A stretch of 64,000 nucleotides of DNA. Source: Dictyostelium discoideum (taxonomy: Eukaryota). Below are positions 9,353 to 56,392 of the stretch, in pieces. Within the stretch, counting starts at the first letter, position 1; every line of letters starts with the position of its first letter. The position numbers were made by a program, and so were the translations under genes. A model generated the notes under the pieces. The model ran no database searches and was not told the DNA's origin. It was given only the letters and a program-made list of their open reading frames with translations. The stretch is from contig CM000152.2 of NCBI GenBank assembly GCA_000004695.1, forward strand, positions 4,704,001 through 4,768,000, read 5' to 3'.

Positions 9353-10268
9353 TTTATTTATAATAATTTAATGAAATCAAATGTTTGAACATCATTTGTG
9401 TTTGTGATAGATTTGAAAGTGATGACAATGTTGCCAGATTCGAATGACCATGACCAATATCCACTCAAGTTTGCATCATGTTTGATTACAATTGTATGAT
9501 TTGAAGTTGCTTCTTGAACTGCTTCTAAAATCATTTCATCTGAACAACGTTTGGTAAGATTTGCAGCAACTTTTTCAACAATACCTGCAAATATATGACC
9601 GAAACTATTCTTTAAATCATCAGCAACTTTTGGATAAACTTCTTGTAATGATGTTTCATCAATTGACCAATCAGCTGATGATTTTAATGCCTTTTTAACA
9701 GCTGCTAAATTATCTTTCATTTTTTGTTCATTTGTTTTAATATTTAAACGAGTGCTTAAAGTGTAAACACCTTGAGTTGGAATAATTGTTTCTAATTTAA
9801 AAGTATTTACATCGTTTGTGTTGCAAATCTTTGGACGGAATAAAATTTGACAATCACCATTTTCAAATTGGAATTTCCAGTATGATGATAATTTTTCATC
9901 AGCACAAATAAAAACAAATTTCTTATTTGGAACAGCTGCTAAAAATGCTTCTTTAATTAATGGATCGGCTCCGACTTTAGCCATGTTTTTAGTAAGATTA
10001 CCAACTACATCTTTATAAAAGATACTACCACAACTATTTGTAACCCAGGAGTCATTACATTTTGTAATAATATCTTCAAAATCAAATTCAATAGCAAAAG
10101 CTTCACCTAATGATTTTTCAATTGCAGCTAAATTTGTTTTTAAAGATTCTTCATTATCTTTTAATGATTTTCTAAAAATTTAAATAAATATAATTAGTTA
10201 CAATTTATTTTAATAAATTAAAAATAAAAATAATAATTACCTTGAAGTTAAAGCGAGAGGCATTTTGG
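9353..10268. repeat. Segmental duplicate unit B
   Basis: Direct sequence comparison. Confidence 0.9.
9358..10263 (-). CDS. Copy 2 of the same gene. Exon 1 is 10263..10241, intron 10240..10172, exon 2 is 10171..9358. The coding sequence differs from copy 1 by ~7 substitutions, of which 2 are non-synonymous (both Ala to Thr).
   Basis: Exons align almost base for base with 7308..8233; the intron and flanks are unrelated. Confidence 0.7.
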
Positions 10269-17959: not shown

Positions 17960-19605
17960 ATTATTAATTATTAAAATTAACTTACAGATTTCTCTTTTGT
18001 TAAAAAATTACATAAAGTTTGATAATAATTTGAAATTAAGTTTTTAGTATTTGTAATTTCTTCAGTAGTTAATAAACTATGAAATAGATTTATTAAATCT
18101 GGTATTTTATCTTTATAATTTGAAACTTGTTGAAATTGTTTTAAAAATACTAAAAATGTTAATAAATTACCATATCCACTCTCTTTATCTTGTTCAATGG
18201 TTGAAGAGGTTGAAAGTTTACTAACCAATTTATAAATTGGTTGATAGGAATGAATGATATCAACACAAAATAAATCAATCATTATACGAATTATGAATCT
18301 ACGTTTGGTGATTTTCGAATTTCTTTCATTCTCTGAATCGGTTGATGCTATGATAAGGGGTGTGAAAAATGGAGGAATTTGCTCAGCGATGATGGTGTCG
18401 ACATCGTCGTATTTCTGATACATCATTGAGAGCACCTGAATCACGTAGGGGATATCCTGGGCTTTGAAATTGGATTTCAAGAGCGACGGGATGATCTCCG
18501 AGACGTAGTGGGAGAGATTGAGCTGCGACACCTCACTGACGATATTCTCCCTGCATTCAGTCAAGGTCTTGACTTTCTTTACAAATGTCGATACCTTTTT
18601 AAAGCTAGAGTCTAAATCTTTGGTGCCTTGTTTATTGGCTTTGCTATGTTTTTGATTTAGGCTACGAAGTTTTTGTTGAAGTTGTATCTCGTCTTTTAAC
18701 TTTTGAATTCTATCTTGCTCAAGTTTTAATTCCCTCTCCTTCTTTTCTTGCTCCAATTTCATTTCCCTTTCTTTTCTCTCCTCTTCTTCCTTTTCTTTAC
18801 GTTCTTTTTCAATTCTCTCTTTTTCTTCTCTCTCCTCTTGTTCCTTTTTCTCTCTCTCTTGTTTCTCCTTACGTTCTTTCTCTTCTTGTTCTTCTTTTAA
18901 TTTTTTAATATCATTTTTATTTGTTCTTATTGGTTTTTGTTTAATTGGTTTATTATTATTATTATTATTAATATTATTAATATTATTATTATTATTATTA
19001 TTGTCTTGTTGTGCTAATTGTTGTGCTGGTGGTTGTTTTTGTGCTGGTGGTTTATTTGGTTTTTCTTTTTTAATTGGTTTTGGTGGTTTAGCAATTGGTG
19101 GCTGAGGTTGTTGAGGTTGTTGTTGTTGTGGTTGTTGTTGTTGTTGTTGTGGATCAACATTATTATTATTATTATTGTTGTTGTTGTTGTTATTATTATT
19201 ATTATTATTATTATTCTTTTTTGGGATTCTACCTGCTTGTTTTTCAATTTGAGGAGCACCTGGGATAGGAGCGACCTTTTCAGGTTTTGGTCTTGGTGGT
19301 TTTTTTTCTTTTGGTGCTTGTTTTGCTAATGGTGGTACAAAAGCATTTTGTTGATTATTATTATTATTATTATTATTATTAACACCATAATAACCTTGTT
19401 GATATTGTTGTGGTTGTTGTTGTTGGAATGGTGGTTGTTGTTGTTGTTGTTGTTGTTGTTGTGGTGGTGGTTGTTGTCTTTCTACAAATACTTGTTGAAA
19501 ATGGTGTTGTGGTTGAACATTATTATTATTATTATTATTAATATTAGTGTTACTATTATTTTTATTATTATCAGGTTTTACCTTTGGGACATAAGTATAA
19601 CTCAT
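15332..19605 (-). CDS. upf2: Nonsense-mediated decay factor UPF2 (~1396 aa). Joins track ORFs 17977..19605 and 15332..17863 across an 86 nt intron at 17985..17900 (GTAAGT…tttaaAG, phase 0). N-terminus carries large poly-N/Q/P and E/K-rich tracts.
   Basis: MIF4G-type blocks match human UPF2: STFVKKVKTLTE (TAFVKKLKTITE), VACLIFETCGRFLYRTPD (MACTLLETCGRFLFRSPE), MVENAYLACRP, QKRIMQVTLFGELYN, YLVFFQRYTLTK, C-terminal FKILLKKG. Confidence 0.85.
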
Positions 19606-23822: not shown

Positions 23823-24653
<831 letters not shown>

Positions 24654-25387
24654 TGAAAAAATAAATAAATAATAAAATAAAAATAAATTAATTAATAAAA
24701 AATAAAAATTTAATAAATAATAAAAAATAATGATTAGTTAATCAATCTATAGATATTTTCAAAAAAAAGTTTATTTTATTTTATTCCTAATTATTTTTCA
24801 AAATTAAAAGAGTGAAATTTGAAGTGATTGATGTATGGATACTGAGTTTCGAATGCCACTAGAGTTGTTGCAATGAATGATACAATAATCACCCATGCCA
24901 ATAAAGTAATAGTTCCCATCGGAATCTGTTATTCTCTCTTACCATCATTATTCTTATCTAATGAATGGTACTACTAAAACAATATTTTATTTATTATTGA
25001 TTGCGTTAATTTGAAATAATATTCACCTGTGGATTCGACCACTGAATCATATGAAATTACAACAAATTGATATTGAAAACCGTCGATATCTGTTTGAATT
25101 GTTGATGTTTCACCATTACCACTGTGTGTATATTAAAATATACATGTTCCCATGAAACAACTTAATCTCAAACCTTTAACAAGTATAAATTTTTTATATT
25201 ATTTATTTATTTCTTTTATTTTCTTTGTCTATATTAAATAATATCATTTGATTAAATGTAATATTTTTAATAAAAAAAAAAAACTCCCACCATTTTTTTA
25301 TTACAAAATGTTTTTTCGTTTTTTCTCAAATACCCAAGAATTATTTAATTTTTTTTTTTTTTTTTTTATTTATTTTTTTTTTTTATT

Positions 25388-25420
<33 letters not shown>

Positions 25421-25487
25421 TAATCATCCAAGATAATATTGAAACTATTTATTTATACAAATCAAAAAAAAAAAAAAAAAAAAAAAA

Positions 25488-25506
25488 ATGGGAGATGATG
25501 AAAGTG

Positions 25507-25557
<51 letters not shown>

Positions 25558-27902
25558 TTGGATGTAAAATTTTAAAAACAGTTATTAGTGGTAGGAGAAG
25601 TATATTATTGGAATCATATAATAATAATAATAAAAATAAAAATAATAATAATATTATTATTAAAAGCTATGAAGATGAATTTAATTTATTTAAATTAAAT
25701 AATAAAAAGGAGTTATCAATTGAAAAATTACAAACAATTGCAAAAGATAATGGATTACCATTTGATGAAAATGAAAATGATTTATATAATAGAATTGAAA
25801 TATATTATAATATTAAAATTAAATTAGAAAAAGAAGTTAAACAACAACATGATAATAATCCATTTAATAAAGGTCACCCAATATTATTAATTAATAATGA
25901 TAATAAAAATGAAATACTATTTTGGAAAGTTTTTAGAAATAAATTAATTTTTAAAAATATATTTTCAAATTTCAAATATTCAAATTTATTTAATTATTCA
26001 AGATTATTCTCAGTTTATAATATTTATAATGATTTTAATAATTGTATTGAAATCATTAGAGATAAAGTAAAATCAAATAGTTATTTAGCATTTGGTCATT
26101 GTTTAGATAATTTCAGTGGTTTGTCAACTATTTTAAAAAATATTAAAAAAGATACTCAAGAAAATCAATTATTTCATAACCGATTATTAAATAATTATTG
26201 TAATAAATTAATTCATGCTGGTAATTTTTTTAAAATTATTATTGAGTCATTTAATTTGTTAGCATTAAAATCATTTTTTAATAATAAAACTTTAAAAATT
26301 AAAAAAGTTAAAATTAATTTTGAAATTAATAAAATTTCAGAATTAAAATTTTTAGAATATTTATTTAATAATCATAAAGAATATATTGAAATTCAAAAAA
26401 TAATTATCACTATTTTAAAACCAAATATATTTGAAAAATTTAAATTGGGTGAATTAATAAAATTGGTTATGATATTATATGATGATGAAATTTACACAAA
26501 AATTGAAAAACTAGATAATTTAAAAAATAAATTAATATATAATAAAATTAAAGAATTTCAATTTTCAGATAAAGAATTAAATGAAAATTTATTAACACTT
26601 TTAAAACCAGTCACTAAATCAGACAGATTTTACATAAAATTAAATGATAATTATAATAATAAATTAAACATAATTTTTAAATATATTAATATATTTTACA
26701 AATTAGTTGGAGGATCAACTATAAAACCATTTGAATATTATTTCACTCACATGGGTGAAAAAGAATTAATTGAAAACAAACCAAATGAAATCAATCAAAG
26801 GCAAACTAAAATGGTGATAAATTCAAATATTAAAAGAATTCTTTTAAAAAATAATAATGATACACATGAAACTATCAATAGTATTAAATCAATTGATATG
26901 TTGGATTCCCTTTTTAATAATTATCAAGATCAATTTTTTAAAGATAGAAATGAAAATTGGAAATATGTTAATAGTATTACAATTTTAAAACATTATGAAA
27001 AATTAATGCTATCATTAGGTAGAAAATTTTCATTTAATAATTCTAATGTTATTGAGATTGGGTCAAAAGGAATTCAATCAAAATTATATTTAATAGCAAT
27101 TAATAATCCATCATTATATCAAGTAATTGGTGAAAAAAAAAAAAAAAAGGATTATGTTTTAAATTTAAATTTTATTGCCTTTCCAGGCAAATTAACTTTT
27201 ATATCATTAATAGAATCGAATTATTTTAAAAATATTAAAATTTCAGAATCCTTAGAATTTACTAAATATATTACTATATCAAGATGGATTTCAGATAATT
27301 GTATTTCAATTTTTTCTGATAATAATAAACCTGAAATTTATATTCAATTACCAAATTTAAAAAAAATTAATATTGTTAGTGGAATAAGTAGTGGTAGTGG
27401 TATAAGTAGTGGTAGTGGTGGTAATGATGGGAAAATTAAAATTATTTTAGATCAACTTCAATTAGTTCAAATTTTATATAATTCAAATCGTATTGATGAT
27501 ATTTTTAAAATTAAAAATTTAGATAGTAATATAATTACTAGTTTTATTAAAAATATAAGTCCACATATTTCATTAGATTTCGTTAATAGATTAATTATTA
27601 GAGGATATTTTAATAATTATCAAAAAAAAAATAATTTTTTAAATCAAATAGTTTTAAATAATAATCTTCCAATTATTAAATTTTTATATTTAAATCATAG
27701 TAGTTGTTTCTTTTATTATAATTTAAAAGATTTACTTTTATTAGCAATTAGTAATGATAATTATCAAATAGCTGAACTTTTTTTTGTATTTTGTAACTTT
27801 ACAAGAAAAGAATTGAAATCAGTAATAAAAACAAAATTTTCATTAATAGAACTAATCCATGGAAATAAATTAAAATTAGGAATAGAAATAATAAAAAAAT
27901 AA
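25488..27902 (+). CDS. Family member B (804 aa), full length. N-terminal MGDDESDN(N)16, SAP-like helix-turn-helix ([32 protein letters not shown]), conserved core and C-terminal region. Lineage-specific paralog family of unknown function.
   Basis: Conserved blocks versus C and D: [135 protein letters not shown]. Confidence 0.7.
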
Positions 27903-27919
27903 AAAATAAAATAAGAATT

Positions 27920-27970
<51 letters not shown>

Positions 27971-28140
27971 AAAGGAATAATTTTTTTTTATTTAGAAATA
28001 AAAAAAACTTCAAAAATTAGTGAAAAATAATAATAAATGTTTTTATCTATTTTTTTATTTAATATAGTTATAAAACCTCATTATTTGGGAAATTTTTTTT
28101 TTTTTTTTTTTTTTGATCAACCTAATGCCTAAAATAAATA

Positions 28141-28740
28141 ATAATGAATAAAAGAACAAGAGATGGTAACCAAGAATTTGGTGATAAAAAATTAAAAGAA
28201 AATAATTATAATGACAAAGATAATAATATTAAAAATAATGAATTTAAATCATTTAAATCAGAATAAAGAAGAGTTAACAATTGAAGAATTACAAACAATT
28301 GAATTAGATAATGGATTACCATTAAATGGTGATGAAAATGAATTGTGATAATAGAATTTAACAATATTATAATATTAAAATTAAATTAGAAAAAGAATTT
28401 AAAAAACAACAAGATAATAACCCATTTAATAAAAGTCAACCAATATTATTAGTAATTAATAATGATAATAAAAATGAAATACTATTTTGGAAAGTTTTTA
28501 GAAATAAATCAATTTTTAAAAAGGTATTTTCAAATTTCAAATATTCAAATATATTTAATTATTCAAGATTATTCTCAGTTTATCATATTATTAAAGATTT
28601 TAGTAATGGTAGCTAGCTACTCCCCTCGAAGAGGGGATGGTTAGCGGTGCGACAGGGGGGAGGAGACAGGGGGAACTGAAATCATTAGAGATAAAGTAAA
28701 ATCAAATAGTTATTTATCTTTTATAAGATTATTAATATTA
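28141..28740 (+). pseudogene. Decayed family member E. MNKRTRD start type, with in-frame stops and frameshifts, truncated after the …[10 protein letters not shown] block. Carries the GC-rich insertion at 28611..28676.
   Basis: Recognisable family blocks (SAP-like region, [45 protein letters not shown]) interrupted by TGA/TAA codons. Confidence 0.75.
28611..28676. other. 66 bp GC-rich (~65% GC) insertion inside pseudogene E: AGCTAGCTACTCCCCTCGAAGAGGGGATGGTTAGCGGTGCGACAGGGGGGAGGAGACAGGGGGAACT. It replaces 3 bp of the family consensus and contains a perfect CCCCTC-GAA-GAGGGG hairpin.
   Basis: Aligned against intact paralogs (…aatggt|att|gaaatcattagag…); composition is very unlike its surroundings. 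Confidence 0.8.
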
Positions 28741-29269
28741 CGAGCATTAAAAAAAAAAATTAGAACAAACAACATTTAATTTTGTATTTAAACCATAAAA
28801 ATTCCTGCCTATTTAAAAAAAAAAAAAAAAAAAAAACAAATTAAAAGAGAATATATTTTAAAAAAAATAAAAAATAAACTTTATTTTATTACTATTAAAT
28901 TAAATATTATTGTTATTCTTAATCAAATATATTTTAACAAAAAAAAAAAAAAATAACCCCATCCAAATTAATAATAGACATTTTTTTATAGATCTATGAT
29001 ATTTGAAATTTGATTTAGAAAATTTTGAACATCTTTAAAAATAATATTTAGTTAAAAAAAATTAAATTTGAAAATAAAAAAAAAAAAGCCTTTTCGAATA
29101 TTTAAATTATCCTTTTGGCAATTAAACCCATTTATTTTTTTTTTTTTTAATTTTTTTTTATTTTATTTTATTTTTTTATTTTTTTTCTTTTTTTTTTTTT
29201 GGTAAGACCACTTTTTAATTTTTTTTTTATTTTTTTTATTTTTTTATTTTCAATAAATTGGTTAGAAAA

Positions 29270-30867
29270 ATGAATAAAAGAACAAGAGATAAGAATGACC
29301 TAGATTTAAATGAAGAAGAGGGAATTAATAATAAAAAATTAAAAGAAGATAATGATAGTAGTAGTAATATTGTTAAAAGTTATGAAAATGAATTTGAATC
29401 GTTTAAATTAAAGAAAATAGGAGGGGAATTATCAATAAAAAAGTTACAAACAATTTTAAAAGATATTGGATTACCACATAGTGGTAGAAAAGTTGATTTA
29501 ATTAATAGAATAGAACAATATTATAATATTAAAATCAAATTAGAAAAAGAAGTTGAACAACAACAAAATAATAATCCATTTAATAAAAGCCAACCAATAT
29601 TATTAATTAAAAATGATTATGAAATACCATTTTGGAAAGTTTTTAGAAATAAATCAATATTTAAAAATATATTTTCAAATTTCAAATATTCAAATATATT
29701 TAATTATTCAAGATTATATTCAGTTAATAATATTTTTAATGATTTTAATAATTGTATTGAAATCATTAGAGATAAAGTAAAATCAAATAGTTATTTAGCA
29801 TTTAAACAAATTAAAGATTTAGATGAATATAGTATAAAAACCAATGAAACAACAGACGAAGATGGATTAATAAAGATTTTAGATAGCTTTAAAGAAGAAA
29901 CTCAAGAAAATCGATTATTTTATACTCGATTTATAAATAACTATTGTAATAAATCAATTCACCCTTTAATTTTACTTGGTAGAATCGTTAAAGCTTCAAA
30001 TTTATTAGCATTAAAATCATTTCTCAATACAGAAATATATGTTAAAAGTAAAATTCAAATTAAAATTGAAATTAACAAATTTTCAGATTTACAAATCTTA
30101 GAGTTTTTAATTAATAAATACTATAGAAATAATGATGATAATAATAAAAAAGAAAAAGAAAGTGAAAAAGAAAGTGAAAAAGAAAGTGAAAAAGAAAAAG
30201 AAAAAGAAAAAGAAAGTGAAAAAGAAAAAGAAAGTGAAAAAGAAAAAGAAAGTGAAAAAGAAAGTGAAAAAGATAGTGAAAAAGATAGTGAAAAAGAAAA
30301 AGAAAAAGAAAAAGAAAAAGAAAAAGAAAAAGAAAAAGAAAAAGAAAAAGAAAAAGAAAAAGAAGAAAAAGAAGAACTTATTCAAAAAGATTTAAATGAA
30401 AATGAAATTGATAATCTTAAAAAATTAAAAGAAGGTAGTGAAGGTAATGATAATGATAAAAAAAAAGATGAACAAGATGAAAATTTAGTTTTTATTGAAT
30501 CAATTCGTATAAATGATTTCAATATATTTAAAGAACTTAAATTAGGTGAATTAATTCATTTAGCTAAAACAATATATCAAAATGAAAAAATTGTTAAATT
30601 ATTAGAATTACCAACCTATCATAAAGTTTCAATAGATTTTCCAGAATACATCTTTTTTTCATTAGGTGAAGAATTTAAAAATGATTATATTATAGAGAGA
30701 ATTAGAGAATCCAAACTTGATTTTTCAAATAAAATTAAAGAGGGTTTATCTTTTTTTAATGAAATTAAAGAATTTCAATTTACAGATAAAGAATTAAATG
30801 AAAATTTATTTATGCTTTTAAAACCATTAACAAATTGGGATAGACATTTTTCAAAATTAAATGATAA

Positions 30868-30905
<38 letters not shown>

Positions 30906-32011
30906 TCAATAATAATAGTAATGAACAAGGTTGTGAATTATCATTAGTAAAATATAATATTTTAGAATTATATAATAATAAATTAAGAAAGAATTATCAA
31001 AGATTAGAAGAATATTTTAGATTTCAAAGATATGAATTTGCTCAAAAAGATTTTAAAGAAATTTCAAGTATTCATAAGGAACAAATTGAAATTGAAAAAG
31101 AAATTGAAAGTTTATTTCAAAAAGAAAATGAATTTATTGAAAAACAAAATGAAAAAGATAGACTTCTTGAATCGGATGAAATTTGTAAAAAGAAAAAGAT
31201 AGTATTAGGTTACATATTTTTACTATTCAATTTATCAATGCCAAGAAGGAAACCAATTGAATATTATCTATCTTTTAAAGATGAAAAAAAGGTCATTGCA
31301 TATGGCACTCAAATGAAAGATGAATTTTTAAATTATGGTATACCAAATAATGAGATACTAAGTAGAATTTCAGAGATTGGGTATGGGTCAAATACAAGAG
31401 ACCGATTTAAAATGATAATGAATTCAAAGTTTTTAATTGAAAAGCCATTTAAAGAACATTTTATTAATCCATTGAATTCACCTTTAATCATTGCCAATGT
31501 TAAATCAAAGGATATGTTGGATTTATTATTTAAAAATTTTAATCAACAATTCTTTAAAGATAATAATAGAAATTGGAAATATTGTAATAGTATAGAGATT
31601 ATAGAATATTATGAAAAGTTAATGCAATCATTGGGTAGAAAATTCTTATTCTCTTTTGATTTTGCTAACCGTTGTACAATAGAATGCAAAGGAATTGATA
31701 TTTATCCAAAACTATTATCAAGAGCAATCAGTAATCCAACACTTTATAATCATAGTTCAAATCTTGCTCCAAAAGAAAGATTATTAAAAATCAATGATAG
31801 AACCATTGTAAAACAAAGAGCATTCCTATCGTTATTAGAATTAAATTATTTTAAAACTATTACATTTGACCGATCTTTTACTTTTAACAAATATTCTTAT
31901 AAAATTTCAAGATGGATTTCTGATAATTGTATTTCAAATATATCAAAACTCAATTTTAATGATAATGGTTATACAAAAATTAAAATTCAATTACCAAATA
32001 AAAAAAGAAAA

Positions 32012-32052
<41 letters not shown>

Positions 32053-32920
32053 GAATAATAATAAGAATGGAAAAGAAGAAGAAATAGAAGAAGAAAGTAC
32101 CACTTATGATGGTTATGGTTATAATTCTGATAATTCTTATGATTCTGACGATTATGATGATTATGATAATTATGATAATTATGATGATTATGGTGATTCT
32201 GATGATTCTGATGATTATCTTAATTTTGCTCATGATGATGATTCTAATTATGAAAATGACAATGAAGATGAAGATCATCCTCAAGATTATAGCAATATGG
32301 CAATTACAACAGCAGCAACAGTAACTGCAACAGCGACAACAACAACAGCACCAACAACAACAACAGCAACAACAGCAACAACAACAGCACCAACAGCAAC
32401 AACAACGACAACTGATAATGGTAAAAGTGATAATGGTAAAGAAGATGATGATGATGGAATAATTATGATTATTTTAAATCAATCACAATTAATTGATATT
32501 TTATATAATTCTAATCGTTTAGATGATATATTTAAATTCAAACGTGATTATAAATTTTCAAATAGAAATTTTTTTAGAAAGGTTGGACCACATATTCCAT
32601 TATCATTGGTTGAAATTTTATTAAAAAATTCAAATTTTATCAAAATTGGTATTGATATTCAAGAATTTTTAAATTATTTAGTTTTAATTGGTAACCTTCC
32701 AATTATTAAATATTTAAATTTAAATTTTAGTCATTTCTTCACAAAAAACCAAAGAACAAAGGATTTAAAGAGTTTACTTTCAACTGCCATTCGTTATGAT
32801 TACCCTCAAATCGCTGAAATTCTTTTTGTTTATATAAAATTAACAAGATATGAATTCAGAAAAGAAGTTCAAACTGATTTCTCATTAGTAGATTCACTCT
32901 ACTATAATAATTTGTGGTAA
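29270..32920 (+). CDS. Family member C (~1217 aa from ATG 29270; the track ORF starts at an upstream TTG). MNKRTRD start type, SAP-like motif LSIKKLQTILKDIGLPHSGRKVDLINRIEQYY, plus large low-complexity expansions: (E-K/S-E-K)n from 30140..30370, an acidic D/Y/N tract, and a T/A-rich tract.
   Basis: Same conserved blocks as B and D. Confidence 0.7.
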
Positions 32921-32931
32921 TGAATAGAATA

Positions 32932-32970
<39 letters not shown>

Positions 32971-33149
32971 AATAGAAATAAAATAAAATAAAAAGAAAAA
33001 GAAAAAAAATAAAATGTTTGTTAAAAAAGATATTTTATTTTTATTTTTTTATACAAAAATAATTGAAATTAATGACAATGATAATATCATTAATTTGCAA
33101 ATTTGTTGAAATTTTTGAGATGCAAGAGAAGTTGTGGTTGAATGTGAAG

Positions 33150-34530
33150 TTTATGATGTTGATGATGTTGAGGATGTTGAAGAAGTGGTATAATCACCAG
33201 TTGAATAACCTGAAGAGGAATAATCACCAGTTAATGTAGAATCGGAACCACAAAATGTATTATCATTATTTTTAGCATAACAATGGTCACAATATACAAC
33301 AAATGATGTATTAAAATTAAAATTCTCTTTTTCAAAGTCATCTCTGAATTATCACAAACAATTCCATTTTCAATGTTTTCAAAATTAATATTATTAATAT
33401 AAACTGTTGAATAATAAGCTTGAATAAATGCTGCACCATTATTTGCTTTTGGTTGTTTATAGGCAGTACCAATACTTGAATTGGTAATAGTGAGATTTGC
33501 AATAAACACATAAATGGCACCACCACCTAACAAAGCATTATAATTTATAAAAATTGAATTTTCAATCAATATTGGTAATTATAAAGCACCGATAGCACCA
33601 CCATTGGATTTAGCACTATTTCCAATAAAAATACAACCGATTACATTGCTTGAAGTTGAAATTTGATCTTGACTTGAGTATGAAACGAATAAAACACCAT
33701 TGACATTAGTATTATTAAAGAATTGACAGTTTTCAATATTAAATGAGTATTGTTTTGGAAGTGAGCTGTCAAATTTTAACACAGATGAAGAGTTTAAACC
33801 AATGTTTTCGGTGAATGAAGAATTTGTTAAATAAACTGTTGAATCTGTTGAAAAGACAATATCTCTTAAATTGGAATTTCCAATAAATGAACTGTTATTA
33901 ATAGAAACATAACCTTGACTGGATAATATAATCTCTTCAATATTTGAAACGTTTGAAACTTGAGTATTTTCAAATACAATAGATGTTTTTACAAAGTTGA
34001 TTAATGGAGTTTCAAATCTTACAGAAGCGTTTAAAATTGATGAATTTGAAATTATAATATTTGTGGTTATTGATGTTGATGTTGATGATGGCGGTGATAA
34101 ATAAACACCAGCTTCAATCATTGAACTAGAGGCTGAGCTGAATTATCAAATGTACTTTGATCAAATGTAAAGTATGAATTTGAGTAACCATCGACACTTA
34201 GTATTGATTGATTGAATAAATTAAAATATATTCCAGTAATTGTTACAGAGGATTGGATAATAAGATCTTGACTACTTTAACTACCTTCACTTGGTGTGGC
34301 AATTGAAAATAATGGAGAACCTTGACCAACAAAAGATACACCACCATTAGAGCTATTTAATGGAGAGATAACTATATCAAATTCATATAAATTTACAGAG
34401 TTTTCCACGGCTGGATATATCCCATCTACCAATTTTAAATTTAATTTTTGGTACATTGAAGCAATGGTTAAAGTTGGATTTTGAACTGTTGCAATTGTTT
34501 TAAAATACTCTATAGCATCATTAATTATTT
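33150..34530 (-). pseudogene. Parallel beta-helix (pectate-lyase-like, PbH1-repeat) protein gene disrupted by at least two in-frame stops (for example TAA at 33578..33576) and at least two frameshifts (near 34125 and 33345). Pseudogene, or a gene in error-containing sequence.
   Basis: Repetitive N/S/T/I-rich beta-helix rungs with GGAIY / NGGAIGAL motifs. Adjacent ORFs 33579..34121 and 33231..33569 are in one frame separated by a single stop. S/T-rich tail continues in the +1 frame. Confidence 0.5.
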
Positions 34531-34749
34531 TTTTTAAAAAAAAAATAAAAAAAAACTAAATTATCGTTTTTAAAACTCGCTCCAATGCCATTTTATTTTA
34601 ATTTTATTGCATTTTATTTTTTTATTATATTTTTAAAATAATTTTATATTTTCCGTGCTTACGTTATTTCCATTTTAAAATAAGTTTTACTAAGGAAAAA
34701 AAAAAAAAAAAAAACTCAATAGTGACACCAGTCACAAAAAAAAAAAAAA

Positions 34750-34818
34750 AATCTTTAAATAAATGATATTGAAAATGAATTATATAATAGAATTGAAAGA
34801 TATTATAATATTAAAATT
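34750..34818 (+). pseudogene. Family pseudogene X, 5' piece G (…[24 protein letters not shown]-like region). It is precisely contiguous in family coordinates with piece F at 37747.
   Basis: G ends …aaattagaa and F begins aaaaagaatcaaaacaacaacatgat; together they rebuild the paralog sequence aaattagaaaaagaagttaaacaacaacatgat. Confidence 0.7.
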
Positions 34819-35159
34819 AAATTAGAACTAAATTCTCTGTAGATATACCAGATTTCGATCATAATTCATTTGTTTATGTTTTCGAAGGTGAAGGTAAATT
34901 CGGTCTAGAAGGATATGAAAAAGTTGTAGCTGATCAACATATTGGTGTTTTAGCGAATAAAGATAGAGTTACAATTAATGATAATGAAATTACACCAAAT
35001 AAATTAGATGCAATCGCAGGTGAAAATGGTGTTAGATTCTTATTTTTATCAGCAAAACCATTACGTGAACCAATTGTCCAACATGGTCCATTCGTTATGA
35101 ATACACAAAAAGAAATTCAACAGGCTTTTTTGATTACCAAATGGGTAGATTTTAATTAA
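34819..35159 (+). pseudogene. 3' part of a pirin (bicupin) gene, the C-terminal ~110 codons including the stop (…FVYVFEGEGKF…KPLREPIVQHGPFVMNTQKEIQQAF…). It sits upstream of its own 5' part.
   Basis: Pirin C-terminal block PLREPI/VQHGPFVMNT-EEI-QA is unmistakable; it abuts piece G directly. Confidence 0.75.
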
Positions 35160-35503
35160 TCACCTTTTTTATAAAAAAAAAAAATAATAATAAAGATAAA
35201 AAAAAAAAAATTGTACTATAATTAATGTAAAGTGGTTATTTAATTTAACCCCCAATTAAACATTTATACTGTTGAATTAGAAAATTATAAAATAAAAAAT
35301 AATAAAATAAAATAAATAATAAAATCTTTTAAATTCAATGAAATTAAAACATAAAAAGAAATAATATGATTGTTATATTATTATAAATATATATATGGTT
35401 ATTAAAAAAAAAGTTTTATATTTTTATTTTAGTATTGTTTTTTATGTTTAAAAAAAAAATGTTTAGTGAATCTTTTTTTGATCGATCGAGAAAAAAAAAT
35501 TAA

Positions 35504-36253
35504 TTAAAATGGTAAGTTACCAAGAACTCTTGGTAAATGGACTGATGATTTCAATTTTAATTGTTTAGAATTTGGTTGATTTAAACAAATACTTGGTAAT
35601 TGGAAGTATGCTGAGTCAGCAGATGGGTTGTAATAGTAATAGTTTGTTAATGTATATCCACTTGGCGTATTGTTGATATTTTCAGTTGAGCAAGAGATTA
35701 ATGAACAATCTGATTTATCTACAAGGAGACCGACATTTGAAGAGTTACCTAAATCACCTGGATTTACTGAAAACATATCACATTGAACAGTACCTAATTC
35801 GAAATCACCAACATACTTTAATCCTTCAAGTGATGGAGTAGAGTATGATAATGGTTGTTGGAAACAATAATCAGTACCATTTACATTAACACTAACGTAT
35901 TGTGTACTATTACTACCGAAACCCCAGAGATTACCTTTTGTTTTTGTATTACCATTATCGAATAAAAAGTCAACATACAATTGTTGACCAACCAAATCGA
36001 TATTCATAAAACCAGATTCAAGGAAAGATGATTGTTGAATACCACTTGGAGTTGGATAATTTCCATTAAAACTTAACATAACATATGAACTTGAATAACC
36101 TGTTGGGAGTTGGCCACTTGAAGTAAAACATTGTTGTTGACCTACTTGATTTTCAATTTTTGAGTAATCAATTTTATTTGTACCCATACTAAATGATTTA
36201 CAACAATTTAATGCAACTGTCATTACTAAAATTAAAGATAATAATAATTTCAT
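35504..36253 (-). CDS. Secreted protein of unknown function (249 aa), apparently intact. It lies inside the inserted segment.
   Basis: Signal peptide MKLLLSLILVMTVALNCC; N-glycosylation sequons; Cys-containing Q/S/G/N-rich mature region; AT-rich 5' flank. Confidence 0.6.
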   Translation of the reverse strand: MKLLLSLILVMTVALNCCKSFSMGTNKIDYSKIENQVGQQQCFTSSGQLPTGYSSSYVMLSFNGNYPTPSGIQQSSFLESGFMNIDLVGQQLYVDFLFDNGNTKTKGNLWGFGSNSTQYVSVNVNGTDYCFQQPLSYSTPSLEGLKYVGDFELGTVQCDMFSVNPGDLGNSSNVGLLVDKSDCSLISCSTENINNTPSGYTLTNYYYYNPSADSAYFQLPSICLNQPNSKQLKLKSSVHLPRVLGNLPF

Positions 36254-37311
36254 TCTTTAATTTTTTTATTTATATATTTTATTTAATTTTTAAAAATTTT
36301 TATTTGTTTTATTTATTTATTTTAAATTATTTGTTTAATAAAAAAAAAAAAAAAAAAATTATTTATACCAATTTTTTTTTATGGGTATCCGATAACATTT
36401 TAAAAAATAAATTCGAAAATATTAACCAATAAATTATCCTGGAAAATGATATATTTTATTGCCTGGTCATGATGTCAAGAGGACTTGCAAAAATTGATTT
36501 ATTTGAATTATCTCATTTATTTACACAATATCGGATCAAAGTTTTTTCGAATATTTAAATAAAAACCGTAATAGAATTATTTTTTATCAAAGGAATATTT
36601 TTATGGTAAATAAAAAAAATTAAAAAGGAATGTCAGAGAACCTATCTCAGAAAAATGATTTTTTTTATGGATATTTTATAAAAAAAAAAAAATATCTCAA
36701 AATATTTTTTAAAAAAAAAAACCCAGGCAGTGATATCATAATCTTAACAAAAGATAGTTAGCCTGGTACTAAATTTATTGAAAAATAAATAAATAAAAAA
36801 AATAGAATTTTAAATGTTTATAATTATTTATTTGTAGTTGGAGAAAAAAAAAAAAAAAATAAATTAATTTAAATCATCAAAAATGTTTGTCACTCTAAAA
36901 AAATAAATAAATAAGTAAAATATAAAAAAAAAATAAAAAAAAATTAAAAAAATAAAGTTAAAACACCTTCAGTTAATTAATTAATTTTAATAATAATAAT
37001 TAAAAAAAAAAAAGACGAAAAGGACAAAAAAAAAAAAAAAAAAAAAAAATGAAAATATTTGGGTAAAAAAAAAAAAACCCAAAAATAAATTGGAATTCTG
37101 GAATATTTTTTTTTTATTTTTTATTTTATATTATTTTTATTTTTTTTTATAATTAGAATACCAGAACGTACAGGGAATTCATGAATAAGAAAATGATTTT
37201 TTATAAAGACTCATTTTTATTTTTTTTATTCATTTTAAAAAAAAAATAAAAAAAAACAAAACAAATATAAAACAAATATAAAACTAATAAAAATAACTAA
37301 TATTAAATAAA

Positions 37312-37746
37312 ATGTCAAGTGTTTCTAGAAAAGTTTCAAATGTTGCAAAAGGTTATAAAACTAAAGATGGCGCAGGTGTATCACTTTTAAGTGTTATTGG
37401 TGGACCTATCCTATCAAAATCAGTTGATCCATTCTTAATGTTAGATGCATTTAAATCAGAGAATCCAAATGATTATATTGCAGGTTTCCCATCACATCCA
37501 CATAGAGGTCAACAAACTTTAACCTATATGATAGATGGTATAATGGAGCACAAAGATAACAAAGGGAATAAAGGATTACTAAAACCTGGTATGGTTCAAA
37601 TTATGAATGCTGCAAGAGGGTATGTTTTTAATTATAATTGTTAAAAAAAAAAAAATAAAAAAAAAATAAAAATAAATAAATAAATAAAATAAAATAAATA
37701 CTAATAATTTAAAATAATAATATATAGTATTATTCACTCAGAAATG
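37312..37746 (+). pseudogene. 5' part of the same pirin gene. Exon 1 is 37312..37619 (MSSVSRKV…DPFLMLDAFKSE…GFPSHPHRGQQTLTYMIDGIMEHKDNKGNKGLLKPGMVQIMNAARG), intron 37620..37727 (GTATGT…tatatAG, phase 2), then 19 nt of exon 2 (IIHSEM) before the sequence switches abruptly into piece F.
   Basis: Pirin N-terminal cupin motifs (HPHRG, QxMxAgrG, IxHSEM); the splice phase is self-consistent. Confidence 0.75.
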
Positions 37747-38583
37747 ATATAAAAAGAATCAAAACAACAACATGATAATAACCCATTTAATAAAAGCCAA
37801 CCAATAATATTATTAATTAATAATGAAAATGAAAATGAAATTCAGTTTTGGAAAGTTTTTAGAAATAAAATTATATTTAAAAATATATTTTCAAATTTCA
37901 AATATTCAAATCTATTTAATTATTCAAGATTATATTCAGTGTATGATATTATTAATGATTTTAATAATGGTATTGAAATCTTTAGAGATAAAGTGAAATC
38001 AAATAGTTTTTTAACTTTTAATATTGGTACTTGGCCTAATTTTATTGGTTTATCAACTATTTTAGAAAACATTAAAGATGAAAATGAAGAAAATCAATTT
38101 TTTTATATTCAATTAATAAATAATTATTGCAATAAATCAATTCATTTTATGGTTTTTTTCAAATCTATTAATGAATCATCAAATTTATTAGCATTGAATC
38201 ATTTCTTAATAAAAAATTAATTAAACAAAACATTCAACTTTATATTAAAATTAAAAGATTTTCAGATTTTCAATTTTTTGAATTTTTAGTAAATAATCTT
38301 AGTGGTTTAATTACTATTGAATCAATTATTATTGAAAATTTCAATATATTTAAAGAATTAAAATTAGGTCAATTAATTAATATCACTAAAACATTTTATC
38401 GTGATGAAAATTTAGTTAAATTAAAAATAAATATAAAAGTTCAAAATTAATATTGGAAGTTATTAACTATGGTTATCCTGAAATTTCTGAAATTCTTTTA
38501 GTTTATATAAAATTTACAAGTAGTGAATTTAACCAACGAACAGGAAGTCTAAATTCATTATTGAAACCACTAGCTATGGATTA
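37747..38583 (+). pseudogene. Family pseudogene X, 3' piece F. It continues exactly where G stops ([18 protein letters not shown]…[32 protein letters not shown]…), with premature stops and a large internal deletion that jumps to the family C-terminus (…YPEISEILLVYIKFTSSEF…).
   Basis: Family blocks in order; in-frame stops at 38218 and 38448. Confidence 0.7.
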
Positions 38584-38881
38584 AAAAAAAAAAAATAAAA
38601 AAAAATAAAAATAAAAAAATAAATAAATTAGTTTTTTTACTATTTTAATAACAAAATATCAAACCTGGCAAAATAAAAATAGAAAAAAAAAAGAAAAAAA
38701 AAAAGATTTTTATTTAAATAAAAAAGAGTATTAAACTAAAATCTGTTTTAATAAGAAAAAATAAAAATATCCAGATTTTTTTTTCTTTTTTTTTTTCAAT
38801 TTTTTTTTTTTTTTCAATTTTTTTTTTTTTTTTTTTTTATTATTTTATACAAACATAACATTTTAAAAATAAAAAAAAAAA

Positions 38882-41739
38882 ATGAAAAAAAGAACTAGAA
38901 ATAATAATCAAGAATTTTATGATGGTAGAATTGAAAATATTAAAAAACCAAAAGAAGACCACATAATTAATAATGATAGTGATACTTTAATAGATGATGA
39001 AAATAATAATATTAAAAATTATGAAAATGAATTTAAATTATTTAAATTAATGAATAAAGAAAAGTTAGTAATTAAAAAATTACAAACGATTGCAAAAGAT
39101 AATGGATTACCATTCAGTGGTAATGAGAATGAATTGTATAATAGAATTGAACAATATTATAATATTAAAATTAATTCAGAAAAAGAAGTTAAGCAACAAC
39201 AAGATAATAATCCATTTAATAAAAGTCAACCAATATTATTAATTAAAAATGAGAATGAAATTGCATTTTGGAAAGTTTTTAGAAATAAATCGTTATTTAA
39301 AATGGTGTTCTCAAATTTCAAATTTTCAAATACATTTAATTATTCAAGATTATATTCAGTTAATAATATATTTAAGAGTTTTAGCAATGGTATTGAAATA
39401 ATTAGAGATAAAGTAAAATCAAATAGTTATTTATCATTTATAGCTATAAATGATAAGGACAATATTCAAAAATTCAATTTTAATGGTTTATCAATTATTT
39501 TTGAAAATATTAAAGATGAAAATGAAGAAAATCAGTTATTCTATAACCAATTTATAACAAACTATTGTAATAGGACAGTTCACTTTTGGAGTTTATTCGA
39601 CCACGTTATTGAATCATCAAATTTATTAGCATTGAAATCGTTGCATGGAAATGGAATGATTAAAGAAAAGGTAAAAGTTGATTTTGAAATTAATAGTTAT
39701 TCAAATTTAAAAATATTAAATTACCTAACAAAGAATTTAAGTAAACTATTTATTATTGAAACTATTCAAGTCAATGATTTTAATATATTTAAAGAATTTA
39801 AATTAGGTGAATTAATTGATTTCACTAGAGCATTACTTGATGATAAAAAATATTACAAATTATTAAAACCATTTAATAATAATAAATCATTTTCAAGAGC
39901 TACAAAAGATATTGATGATGAATTATCTTTATTTTTAGAAAATATTACAAAAAATAAATTAATTTTAAATGAAATTAAAAAATTTAAATTTACAGATAAA
40001 GAATTAAATGAAAATTTATTTAAAGTTTTAAAACCATTAACAAATTGGGATAGACATTTTTCAAAGTTAAATCATAATTATAGTAGTGACATTGATAACA
40101 ATAGTAGTATTAATAATGAAATTGAAAATGAAAAACAAAGATTATCAATAATAAAATTAAAAAATTTAGAATTATTTCAAAAAATAGTAAATAATAATGA
40201 TATTTTAAGTAAAAAATTAAAATTGGTTAGTTATGAAGTACATGAAAGTATTTTTAGTAATATTATGACAATTCAAAATGATCAAATTAAAATTGGAAAA
40301 GAAATGGAAGGTAATTTTATTGAACAGAATCAATTAATTCAAAAAATACAAGAAAAACAATTAAAAAAACAAAAAGAAAAAGAAAATAATACTCTTCAAG
40401 AATGTAAAGATGATGATTTAAATAAAAGAAATACAATTTTCAAATATATTACTATATTTTATGATTTAAATTTAATTAAAAAGAAACCAATTGAATATAG
40501 TTTAGCCTTTTTAAATGAATTTGTAGCTACAAATGAAGAATATTGTTGTTGGGATGATCAATTATTTGAATATGGTATGCCAAAAAATGAAATTTTAGTC
40601 AATGGTGTATTATCATCAAATATTAATAATTCAAAGAAAATTGAAATTGTAATGAATTCTAAATTTTTAATGGAAAATCAATTTAGAAATTTTATTTCAA
40701 CAAATTGTACTCGATCATTAATTAAAAATGTTAAATCCATTGATATGTTAGATTTCCTTTTTAAAAACTTTCAAAATCAAATATTTGCTGAAAATAATAA
40801 TAATTGGCAATATTGTAATAGTGTTGAAATTTTACAACATTATGAAAAATTAATGGAATCATTAGGTAGAAAATTCTCATATTCAGTTAATAACCCAGAA
40901 ATTCAATTCCCATTATTATTAATGGCAATTAATAATCCATTTTTATATGATGATGATGATGATGATATTCAAAAAAAAAAAAGTTTAATACTTAAAAAAA
41001 ATATAAGTTTTAATGATTTTTTATTATTAATAGAATCAAATCGTTTTAAGAAACTTGAAATGCGTAAGTCACTCACAGAATTTAATAATGACTCTATTTT
41101 AATTTCAAGATGGATTTCAGATAATTGTATAACCGGTCTTTCTTCTCTAATTGACCATGGTCGTGGTTTTAATACGTATAGTATTAAAATAGAAATTGAT
41201 GTTCAATTACCAAACTATAAAGGAAATGATGGTGATGGTGGTGATAGTAATGGAAAGGTTAAACTATTATTATACCAAAATCAATTAATTCAAATATTAT
41301 ATAATTCAAATCGTTTAGATGATATTTTTAAAATTAATAGTTTATCTGGTAAAGAGATTATTAATTTTATTAATTTCATTGGACCACATATTTCATTACC
41401 ATTCGTTGAAAAGTTATTACAATATTTAATTGATGTGAATTTAAATTTTGAAATTTATACTTTTTTAAGTGCATTGATTTCAAATGGTAATCTTTTAATA
41501 ATTAAATATTTAAATTTAAATCATAGTCATTTTTTTTCAAAAATTACAAAAGAGACCGAAGGATTTTTAGAACCAAGAGAATTAAAAAATTTACTTTCAT
41601 CTTCTGTTCTTTTTGATCATGTTCAAATAGCTGAAATACTTTTTGTTTATACAAATTTAACAAAAGGTGAATTTGAAAGGTCAACTAAACCTTCATATTC
41701 AATGATAGAATTTCTTTATTCTAATAATTTTAAATTATC

Positions 41740-41746
<7 letters not shown>
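38882..41746 (+). CDS. Family member D (954 aa), full length. MKKRTRNNNQEF start type, SAP-like motif [32 protein letters not shown].
   Basis: Same conserved blocks as B and C ([119 protein letters not shown]). Confidence 0.7.
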
Positions 41747-52339: not shown

Positions 52340-53100
52340 ACAGTTGGTTGTTTGTGAGGATCATTTATGATACATGAATACATTTCTTCACTCCTATCTA
52401 CACTAATATCTTCTACTCTTGATAAATCTATGAATAACAGGTAACATGTCTCTTAGATAAATCTTTATGAAAATAACCTTTTTGTGAGAAAATTTTACAG
52501 ATTCTTTAACTAATTTGAGCATTCCATCATCATTCCAGTCCTCATCTGATAAGATTTTAAAATATGGCATTATCAATGATCTCTTTTTATTTAAAATAGA
52601 AGCATGTGTATTAATACAAGTTAATGATGCTATTGAGCCAAATTGATTTGAATTCCAAATTCTAATGACCTTATCATTCGAAACTATTGCAAGGAAAACA
52701 TACCACTATATTTTATCGGTTAATCAAGGTTTGGCACAGTATAGTTTCTATTTTTATAATTCAAACATTTCCTTGAAAAAATATATTCTAAAAGTTTTTG
52801 ATCACAATATGGCATTATATAAAAGAGTAAATTTTGCATCTATTGTTGCACACTCATCTCTATCAGAAGTGCCATATCGAACAAATGAAACCTCTGGTAC
52901 ACCATTTTCTATTAAAATTTTGTTTTAAAAAAAAAAATTTCTTAATATTCGAATGTTAAGAATATATCAATATTGGCTATTTTTTCATAACATATACTCA
53001 ATAAATACTTACAATTAACCAATCGTTGATTTTCATGATAAAGGTAATTTTAAATTATCTGATTCTAAATTTTTTAATTTTAAATTATCCGATTCTAATT
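52340..53100 (-). pseudogene. Decayed tandem copy of the 50331..52005 gene. It retains the 3' end (52340..52620 matches 50290..50570), part of the intron-proximal region and the 5' coiled-coil exon remnants (52950..53100), with the middle ~800 bp deleted and small indels.
   Basis: Direct alignment of 52330..52620 with 50280..50560 and of 52740..53100 with 51450..51810. Confidence 0.6.
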
Positions 53101-53249
53101 TAAAAAAAAAAAAAAAAAAAAAAATTATTCCACTTGTAATTTCACTCATTTTATATTTTTCCTTAACGTCTATTATTATGACCTCAAATTTGAATAATTA
53201 TTCATCACCCCAAGATAACTGATTTATCTACAAAATTCATATCACCTTC

Positions 53250-53284
<35 letters not shown>

Positions 53285-53941: not shown

Positions 53942-56392
<2,451 letters not shown>

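What the first reader, a model, noticed from the sequence alone, without database searches (positions are those of the whole stretch)
28611..28676. 66 bp GC-rich hairpin insertion inside a decayed family gene copy, in a ~22% GC genome
In pseudogene E the family consensus …gattttagtaatggt[att]gaaatcattagagataaag… is interrupted. 3 bp are replaced by AGCTAGCTACTCCCCTCGAAGAGGGGATGGTTAGCGGTGCGACAGGGGGGAGGAGACAGGGGGAACT (~65% GC). This contains a perfect 6 bp-stem hairpin (CCCCTC GAA GAGGGG), a GCTAGC palindrome at its 5' edge, and G-runs. It has no tRNA cloverleaf; I checked for T-loop and B box. It has no obvious coding frame. It may be a footprint or filler DNA from a repair or transposition event, a fragment of a GC-rich mobile or extrachromosomal element, or foreign or vector sequence.
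Basis: seen in the sequence. Interest (0 to 1): 0.55.

Follow-up and report, generated by a model that had tools for sequence, protein, structure and literature searches.

The report
Telomere fragment pasted into a pseudogene
The GC-rich insert is a 67-base patchwork copy of the Dictyostelium telomere region (the end of the extrachromosomal rDNA palindrome), pasted into a dead gene in the middle of chromosome 3, most likely when a DNA break was repaired; it is a repair scar, not a gene, a mobile element or an artefact.

Summary
Window 28611-28677 carries a 64% GC block, unique in the window and its most GC-rich 66-mer, inside a truncated SAP-domain family pseudogene of D. discoideum chromosome 3. 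The source is identified. The first 39 nt (28611-28649) are 39/39 identical to the 81-bp "A repeat" next to the telomere of the AX4 rDNA palindrome (PMC6759168, S1 Table). The remaining 28 nt (CGAC AGGGGGG AGG AGAC AGGGGG AACT) resemble the start of the terminal A(G)n telomeric tract, including its AGACAG signature. The roughly 180-260 bp that separate these two pieces at the native end are missing, so the insert is a patchwork. An independent AX4-lineage assembly carries the identical insert. Two diverged D. discoideum strains have the full-length gene with an empty site (AATGGTATTGAAATC). The net change is 1 nt lost and 65 nt gained, with no target-site duplication and no terminal inverted repeats. 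The best explanation is capture or copying of telomere-end DNA during end-joining repair of a double-strand break, giving a short interstitial telomeric sequence. Telomerase involvement cannot be excluded. There were no vector, E. coli, bacterial, tRNA or Rfam matches. This is a known kind of event, and I found no earlier report of it in Dictyostelium. Interest is modest.

The parts
28611..28649 (+). Segment 1: a 39-nt copy of the telomere-associated 81-bp 'A repeat' of the rDNA palindrome end. It spans the boundary between two A units (...AGCTAGCTACTCCCCTCGAAGAGGGGAT|GGTTAGCGGTG).
   Evidence: 39/39 identity to the AX4 terminal sequence in S1 Table of PMC6759168. blastn-short gave E = 1e-16, and this was the only such match in the window.
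28612..28645 (+). Hairpin intrinsic to the A repeat. It has a perfect 7-bp stem TCCCCTC/GAGGGGA (28621-28627 / 28631-28637) with a GAA loop, extended by GCTAGCTA/TGGTTAGC with G-T(U) wobbles. The NheI site GCTAGC lies at 28612-28617.
   Evidence: The same sequence and NheI site occur in the published telomere repeat.
28650..28677 (+). Segment 2: a telomere-like G-rich tract, CGAC AGGGGGG AGG AGAC AGGGGG AACT. It contains two copies of GACAGGGGG (28651-28659 and 28665-28673). Positions 28654-28673 align with the first ~20 nt of the native A(G)n tract (AGGGGGGGGAGACAGGGGG) with one indel. CGAC and AAC(T) are unassigned filler.
   Evidence: searches (17/18 blastn match at 28656-28673; 20-column local alignment with one gap; direct repeat D2), and the native tract.
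28146..28760 (+). Host: truncated pseudogene ('E') of the tandem SAP-domain gene family. It keeps only the 5' ~600 bp and has internal stops and frameshifts.
   Evidence: Alignment to the intact positional orthologue L002 6080-9373. Family identity.
28605..28683 (+). Insertion site. Empty allele: AATGGTATTGAAATC. Filled allele: AATGGTA + 65 nt + TGAAATC. One T is lost, microhomology is 0-1 nt, and there is no target-site duplication.
   Evidence: Empty sites in strains ACTFIW (L002 6638-6660) and ACTFIR (L006 ~2430-2447). No flanking repeats.
28733..28860 (+). Approximate junction of a ~2.6-2.8 kb deletion that removed most of gene E in the AX4 lineage. It lies 55-180 bp downstream of the insert. 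Whether it is the same event as the insertion is unknown.
   Evidence: Homology to L002 stops near 6703 and resumes near 9500-9560.

Best explanation
The block is a short interstitial telomeric sequence. [quoted passage not shown] The copy sits in the SAP-family gene E on chromosome 3 of the AX4 lineage.

Shown:
- Segment 1 is an exact 39-nt copy of the subtelomeric A repeat.
- Segment 2 is an A(G)n-type G-rich tract that carries the AGACAG signature of the innermost native telomeric repeats.
- The two segments keep native order and polarity (proximal to distal, G-strand 5' to 3'), but the ~180-260 bp that lie between them at the native end (the rest of the A repeat, four B repeats and a spacer) are missing.
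- The orthologous site is empty in two other strains.
- The junctions show a 1-nt loss, microhomology of at most 1 nt, a few unassigned nucleotides, and no target-site duplication.

Inferred:
- A double-strand break between GGTA and TTGAAATC was repaired by end joining.
- In that repair, telomere-end DNA was either ligated in as a fragment or used as a transient template with template switching. This DNA is abundant in the nucleus: about 100 palindromes, hence about 200 ends.
- The result is a non-functional scar. It adds an in-frame TAG and a +64 frameshift to a gene that is dead in this lineage.
- The hairpin has no role at this locus. It came in as part of the A repeat.
For: - Source identity: 39/39 identity to the A repeat and a 17/18 match to the start of the C tract. 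The NheI site and the GATG/GGTTAGCGGTG motif match the published primers and repeats.
- Empty sites: two strains have an empty site and a full-length gene.
- Filled sites: two independently assembled AX4-lineage sequences carry the insert and differ by 5 substitutions and 33 gap positions over 20.8 kb.
- Position: the locus is internal, 4.81 Mb into a 6.43-Mb chromosome contig.
- Junctions: there is no target-site duplication and no terminal inverted repeat.
- Other origins: no tRNA or Rfam family; no significant plasmid or E. coli match, and none of the exact 25-31-mers tested occurs in the bacterial-genome or metagenome collections.
- Precedent: one-step insertion of telomeric repeats at break sites, shown by empty orthologous loci and small junction changes, is established in vertebrates (PMC8537989).
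Against: - The insert is not collinear with the published native end, so a simple one-fragment capture needs a rearranged donor. No such donor was seen, because neither the AX4 genome nor long reads could be searched.
- Segment 2 is short and of low complexity, and its match has one indel. The flanking CGAC and AAC have no identified source.
- Which end-joining pathway acted (Ku-dependent or polymerase-theta-type) is not determined.
- The empty-site strains are about 8.5% diverged from AX4 in flanking genes. The age of the insertion is therefore poorly bounded, and 'one step' is inferred, not shown.
Confidence: 0.75

Rival explanations
1. Repair assisted by telomerase or another reverse transcriptase, as in 'TERC-ITS' or chromosome-healing events. 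In one form, an A-repeat end (...GGTTAGCGGTG-3') was extended de novo by the Dictyostelium telomerase-like enzyme (TERTHP) with CGACAGGGGGGAGGAGACAGGGGGAA before or during joining. In the other form, the whole insert is a cDNA of an RNA that carries a C-rich template next to A-repeat-like sequence. The twice-repeated GACAGGGGG would then reflect the template.
For: - The architecture (break, non-repeat fragment, telomeric repeats, break, with an empty orthologous locus) parallels vertebrate TERC-ITS loci.
- The G-tract is on the strand and side expected for 3' extension of the A fragment.
- GACAGGGGG occurs twice, 14 nt apart, and AGACAG also lies at the very start of the native tract.
- RNase-sensitive TERTHP-dependent activity has been reported.
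Against: - The 39-nt fragment is identical to a known subtelomeric DNA repeat, so a DNA donor is sufficient.
- No telomerase RNA is known in Dictyostelium, so the defining test cannot be made.
- The bulk native tract is A(G)n without AC, so GACAG is not the usual product.
- The tract is only about 25 nt long and starts with C, which is atypical for healing.
Confidence: 0.17
2. A small non-autonomous mobile element (MITE-like or hairpin element) that inserted into the pseudogene.
For: It is a discrete insertion with an internal hairpin, and the site is empty in other strains.
Against: There is no target-site duplication and no terminal inverted repeats, and only a single copy in 64 kb. Its two halves are explained by known telomere-end sequence. 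One target base is lost, not duplicated.
Confidence: 0.02
3. A functional structured RNA or regulatory hairpin, or a G-quadruplex element, that is retained at this locus for a purpose.
For: The plus-strand RNA fold is -26.4 kcal/mol with z = -2.4, and it contains G-U pairs that form only on this strand. The 3' half has G-runs.
Against: - The hairpin is inherited from the A repeat.
- There is no Rfam match. The best hit was 16 bits against a 71-bit threshold, E = 3.3.
- It lies in a truncated pseudogene and is absent from related strains.
- No conservation or covariation data exist.
Confidence: 0.03
4. An artefact or foreign DNA: cloning vector, adapter, bacterial food or symbiont DNA, or a mis-assembly.
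For: The GC content is extremely atypical for the genome, and there is a restriction-site palindrome at the edge.
Against: - An identical insert is present in an independent assembly, GCA_054883475.1.
- The only plasmid hit was noise (E = 7), and there was no E. coli hit.
- Exact 25-mers and 26-mers are absent from 185,579 bacterial and archaeal species genomes, and a 26-mer of the insert and a 31-mer of the A repeat are absent from the metagenome collection.
- The sequence is endogenous Dictyostelium telomere-region DNA.
Confidence: 0.01

Closest known systems
Short interstitial telomeric sequences (ITSs) inserted at double-strand break sites in primates, rodents and horses (Nergadze, Giulotto and colleagues; PMC7215372, PMC2246262)
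   Same: Telomere-type repeats lie at an internal chromosomal site. The insertion is revealed by empty orthologous loci. The junctions show small deletions, a few extra nucleotides and no target-site duplication, as expected of end joining.
   Different: Here the repeats are the irregular A(G)n type of Dictyostelium, not TTAGGG. They span only about 20-25 nt. They are preceded by 39 nt of subtelomeric A repeat from the rDNA palindrome end.
TERC-ITS loci: telomeric repeats flanked by a fragment reverse-transcribed from telomerase RNA (PMC8537989)
   Same: A two-part insert, consisting of a unique fragment and telomeric repeats, arrives in one lineage at a break site.
   Different: The unique fragment here matches a known DNA repeat of the telomere region, not a telomerase RNA. 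No Dictyostelium telomerase RNA is known, so membership cannot be claimed.
Capture of extrachromosomal or organellar DNA at repaired breaks (NUMTs/NUPTs; mitochondrial DNA and Ty cDNA capture in yeast). This comparison rests on established knowledge and was not tested here.
   Same: A short piece of an abundant non-chromosomal DNA species is pasted into a chromosome without homology.
   Different: The donor is the nuclear extrachromosomal rDNA palindrome, or chromosome ends carrying the same sequence. The insert is a two-piece patchwork, not one collinear fragment.
Templated 'filler DNA' patchworks made by polymerase-theta-type end joining (plant T-DNA junctions, C. elegans, Drosophila). This comparison rests on established knowledge.
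   Same: The insert has several short stretches copied from one donor region in the same orientation, separated by a few unassigned bases, and includes a re-copied motif (GACAGGGGG twice).
   Different: The donor is not the break's own flank. Microhomology at the junctions is minimal (0-1 nt), and only 1 nt of the target is lost. Whether this pathway operates in Dictyostelium was not examined.
[quoted passage not shown] 2019, PMC6759168)
   Same: Sequence identity (39/39 for the A part), the AGACAG plus G-run signature, and the same relative order and polarity.
   Different: The location is internal. The B repeats and spacer are absent. The total length is 67 nt against more than 500 bp, so it cannot act as a chromosome end.

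Membership tests
Interstitial telomeric sequence inserted at a break site | Telomere or telomere-associated sequence of the same species at a non-terminal chromosomal position | tested here: met
   39/39 identity to the A repeat, and an A(G)n-like tract matching the start of the native tract. The locus lies 4.81 Mb into a 6.43-Mb chromosome contig.
Interstitial telomeric sequence inserted at a break site | An orthologous empty site showing a discrete insertion, not repeat expansion | tested here: met
   Empty AATGGTATTGAAATC in ACTFIW (L002) and ACTFIR (L006). Three window paralogues are also uninterrupted.
Interstitial telomeric sequence inserted at a break site | Junction changes typical of end joining: small loss, a few extra bases, no target-site duplication | tested here: met
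   1 nt lost, 0-1 nt of microhomology, unassigned CGAC and AAC, no flanking direct repeat.
Interstitial telomeric sequence inserted at a break site | Synthesis of the repeats by telomerase | not testable with these tools
   The template RNA is unknown in Dictyostelium. No experimental data are available.
TERC-ITS | The flanking fragment is homologous to the species' telomerase RNA | not testable with these tools
   No telomerase RNA has been identified for Dictyostelium. The fragment matches a subtelomeric DNA repeat instead.
Transposable element or MITE | Target-site duplication and defined termini (terminal inverted repeats or LTRs) | tested here: not met
   No direct repeat flanks 28611/28677, and the ends are not inverted repeats. 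One target base is lost.
Transposable element or MITE | Multiple dispersed copies | tested here: inconclusive
   There is a single copy in the 64-kb window and none in about 110 kb of fetched loci. The whole genome could not be searched.
tRNA or other known structured RNA gene | A match to a covariance model or a cloverleaf | tested here: not met
   ARAGORN found 0 genes. Rfam at gathering thresholds found 0. The best sub-threshold hit was 16 bits against 71. ARAGORN on three tandem A repeats found 0.
Vector, adapter or bacterial contamination | Similarity to plasmid, E. coli or other prokaryotic sequence, and absence from independent assemblies | tested here: not met
   (nothing significant). 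The insert is present and identical in GCA_054883475.1.

The most novel reading that the evidence does not exclude
The insert may be a fossil of telomerase-mediated (RNA-templated) break repair in Dictyostelium. On this reading the G-rich half was synthesised de novo on the A-repeat 3' end, and its tandem GACAGGGGG(G)AG units record a full copy of the still-unidentified telomerase RNA template. The same AGACAG mark sits at the innermost position of the native tract. In the extreme form, the A repeat itself is related to that RNA. This would provide a concrete sequence (complement 5'-CUCCCCCCUGUC-3') with which to search for the Dictyostelium telomerase RNA.
Probability: 0.08. Interest if true: 0.75.

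Novelty: new member of a known kind. Interest (0 to 1): 0.35.

Why it matters
The result explains an extreme compositional outlier in the D. discoideum reference as endogenous sequence, not contamination. As far as the searchable literature shows, it is the first sequence-resolved interstitial copy of the unusual Dictyostelium telomere region. It shows that ends of the extrachromosomal rDNA palindrome, or chromosome ends, have served as donor or template in chromosomal break repair. Such copies may account for part of the Bal31-insensitive internal hybridisation to the T(C)n probe noted by Rodriguez-Centeno et al.; this link is an inference. The direct joint between the A repeat and the G-tract, together with the repeated GACAGGGGG motif, gives a small testable clue about how Dictyostelium telomeric tracts are started. 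Both the telomerase RNA and the maintenance mechanism are still unresolved in this organism. The locus itself appears to have no function.

Tried and rejected
- **Known RNA genes.** ARAGORN and Rfam found nothing, both on the whole window at gathering thresholds and on 28400-28900 at E <= 10.
- **Vector or bacterial origin.** blastn in distant mode against PLSDB plasmids gave one noise hit (E = 7) and nothing against 5,426 complete E. coli genomes. Exact scans for a 26-mer and a 25-mer of the insert in bacterial and archaeal genomes found nothing. Scans for a 26-mer of the insert and a 31-mer of the A repeat in JGI metagenomes also found nothing.
- **Finding palindrome-end contigs in other data.** I searched the protein collection with the two open reading frames of the tandem A repeat and got no hits. 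I therefore could not check independent telomere-end sequences, or look for ends with a direct joint between the A repeat and the G-tract.
- **Wrong anchors for the orthologous locus.** Ependymin-family paralogues P0014 and P0003 led to paralogous clusters (L003, L004).
- **Papers not held.** Eichinger 2005 and Sucgang 2003 are not in the library, so their descriptions of chromosome-rDNA junctions were not used.
- **tRNA-derived reading.** The A repeat contains a B-box-like GGTTCGATTCC on the opposite strand, but ARAGORN finds no tRNA in tandem A repeats, and that motif lies outside the inserted part.
- **Coding reading.** One frame is open across the insert, but the host frame hits TAG at 28614-28616, and open frames are expected in GC-rich DNA.

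Full report
**1. The observation**

Window 28611-28677 reads AGCTAGCTACTCCCCTCGAAGAGGGGATGGTTAGCGGTGCGACAGGGGGGAGGAGACAGGGGGAACT.

- **Composition.** It is 63.6% GC in a window of 21.4% GC, and it is the most GC-rich 66-mer of the 64 kb. It is unique in the window, even allowing 3 mismatches.
- **Hairpin.** The hairpin is a perfect 7-bp stem, TCCCCTC/GAGGGGA, with a GAA loop. As RNA on the plus strand it extends to about 15 bp using G-U pairs (-26.4 kcal/mol, z = -2.4). As DNA the fold is not unusual (z = -1.4).
- **RNA genes.** No tRNA and no Rfam family reached threshold.

**2. Context**

Exact protein look-ups place the window on D. discoideum chromosome 3: XP_640551, a SAP-domain protein, and DDB_G0281635. 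The insert lies in a short, decayed member ("E", about 28146-28760) of a tandem SAP-domain gene family. Three paralogues in the window carry the uninterrupted motif ...AATGGTATTGAAATC... or ...AATTGTATTGAAATC....

**3. Not an artefact**

An independent chromosome-scale assembly, GCA_054883475.1 contig CM142509.1 (locus L001), contains the identical insert and flanks. It differs from the window by 5 substitutions and 33 gap positions over 20.8 kb, so it is not the same assembly. The locus lies 4.81 Mb into that 6.43-Mb contig, so it is truly internal.

Searches for a foreign source found nothing:

- Plasmids gave one noise hit at E = 7, and E. coli genomes gave none.
- Exact 25- and 26-mers of the insert are absent from the bacterial and archaeal genome collection. 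A 26-mer of the insert and a 31-mer of the A repeat are absent from the metagenome collection.

**4. Source of the sequence**

Rodriguez-Centeno et al. 2019 (PMC6759168) determined the terminal region of the AX4 extrachromosomal rDNA palindrome and propose that it is also the telomere of all chromosomes. From proximal to distal it has:

- three and a half copies of an 81-bp A repeat;
- four 28-29-bp B repeats;
- a spacer;
- an irregular A(G)1-8 tract that ends in a 3' overhang.

Their S1 Table gives the A repeat as GGTTAGCGGTGGGAATCGAACCGGTGATCCGAAGAAGTCGGCCACACTCAAGAAGCTAGCTACTCCCCTCGAAGAGGGGAT. It gives the tract start as ...GGTATATGAGGGGGGGGAGACAGGGGGGGAGAGGGGGGGGAGGGGGG....

I compared the window with this sequence:

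- **Segment 1.** 28611-28649 is 39/39 identical to the A repeat across an A|A unit boundary (E = 1e-16).
- **Segment 2.** 28656-28673 matches the very beginning of the G-rich tract at 17/18. A local alignment pairs insert AGGGGGGAGGAGACAGGGGG with native AGGGGGG-GGAGACAGGGGG.
- **Signature motif.** AGACAG occurs once in the native tract, at its innermost end. In the insert GACAGGGGG occurs twice, 14 nt apart.
- **Elsewhere.** No other telomere-region pieces occur in the window.

The insert therefore has two parts in native order and polarity: an A-repeat fragment and an innermost-type telomeric tract. The intervening 180-260 bp are missing, and CGAC and AAC are not assigned to any source.

**5. 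Empty sites**

The neighbouring 1216-aa gene has an 88%-identical orthologue in strain ACTFIW. Immediately upstream of it lies an intact 1097-aa gene. This is the best match (90.8%) and the positional orthologue of E, and it reads ...AGTAATGGTATTGAAATCATTAGAGAC... with no insert (L002). Strain ACTFIR likewise has a full-length E orthologue with ...AGAAATGGTATTGAAATCG... (L006).

Relative to these, the AX4 lineage shows:

- GGTA[T]TGAAATC changed to GGTA + 65 nt + TGAAATC, which is 1 nt lost with microhomology of at most 1 nt;
- no target-site duplication and no terminal inverted repeats;
- loss of about 2.6-2.8 kb of gene E, beginning 55-180 bp downstream of the insert;
- frameshifts and stops upstream of the insert.

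The empty-site strains are deeply diverged from AX4, at about 91.5% identity across the conserved GBP and DNA polymerase epsilon subunit B genes. The insertion is therefore dated only as later than that split.

**6. Mechanism**

Two things are shown: the identity of the two segments, and the presence/absence polymorphism with clean, non-duplicated junctions.

The rest is inferred. A double-strand break in E was repaired by end joining, and telomere-end DNA was either ligated in or copied. Palindrome ends are abundant: about 100 copies per nucleus according to the paper's introduction. Because the insert is not collinear with the native end, the donor or process must have been one of the following:

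- (a) a truncated end re-capped with G-rich repeats;
- (b) two captured fragments;
- (c) polymerase template switching along one telomere end, with the GACAGGGGG motif copied twice.

The data cannot separate these. [quoted passage not shown] In the TERC-ITS subclass, a fragment of telomerase RNA accompanies the repeats.

A telomerase-assisted version is possible here (about 0.17). The G-tract lies 3' of the A fragment on the G-strand, and RNase-sensitive TERTHP-dependent activity has been reported. However, no Dictyostelium telomerase RNA is known, and a DNA donor explains the 39-mer exactly.

**7. Rejected readings**

- **Mobile element.** No target-site duplication, no terminal inverted repeats, and a single copy in all sequence available.
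- **Structured RNA gene.** No family match, and the hairpin is inherited from the A repeat.
- **Vector or bacterial DNA.** See section 3.

**8. Novelty and interest**

This kind of event is known: interstitial telomeric sequence, or capture of extrachromosomal DNA as repair filler. I found no report of one in Dictyostelium. The 2019 paper only inferred possible internal copies from Bal31-resistant Southern signal.

The locus is a non-functional scar in a pseudogene, so its overall interest is modest (0.35). Its one non-trivial feature is the direct joint between the A repeat and the G-tract, together with the repeated GACAGGGGG motif. This could bear on how Dictyostelium telomeric tracts are started.

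Noticed in passing
window 23823-41746: There is a tandem array of SAP-domain family genes. Intact copies lie at 25488-27902, 29270-32920 and 38882-41746. Decayed or truncated copies lie at 23823-24653, 28146-28760 and 37939-38220. The family turns over quickly between strains.
   Followed up: partly
window 33000-38300 versus L002 13690-14281 and L006 9421-10001: In AX4, about 6 kb separates the 1216-aa and 954-aa SAP genes. This stretch carries an ependymin-like gene (35504-36253, minus strand), a pirin gene and other ORFs. In strains ACTFIW and ACTFIR the two orthologous SAP genes are adjacent, so there is a structural difference at this locus.
   Followed up: no
L002, L006 (GCA_054859355.1, GCA_054859385.1): Assemblies labelled Dictyostelium discoideum (ACTFIW, ACTFIR) are only about 91.5% identical to the window across the conserved GBP and DNA polymerase epsilon subunit B region. 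This is far more divergence than expected within a species and suggests cryptic lineages.
   Followed up: partly
A repeat of the rDNA palindrome end (PMC6759168 S1 Table; not in the window): The 81-bp A repeat contains GGGAATCGAACC, the reverse complement of a canonical tRNA B-box/T-loop motif (GGTTCGATTCC). ARAGORN finds no tRNA in tandem A repeats. This motif lies outside the 39 nt copied into the window. The unit is exactly 27 codons and is open in one frame on each strand.
   Followed up: partly
window 18478-18543: This is the second most GC-rich 66-mer in the window (56% GC). It lies inside a 542-aa ORF on the minus strand (17977-19605), next to an 843-aa ORF, and appears to be ordinary coding sequence.
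   Followed up: partly
window 53580-53645: A (CT)n/(CA)n dinucleotide microsatellite block lies in a region of strong negative GC skew (-0.59 over 53001-54000).
   Followed up: no
window 30107-30395: The 1216-aa SAP gene contains a long (EKESEK/KEKE)n low-complexity insert that its paralogues lack.
   Followed up: no
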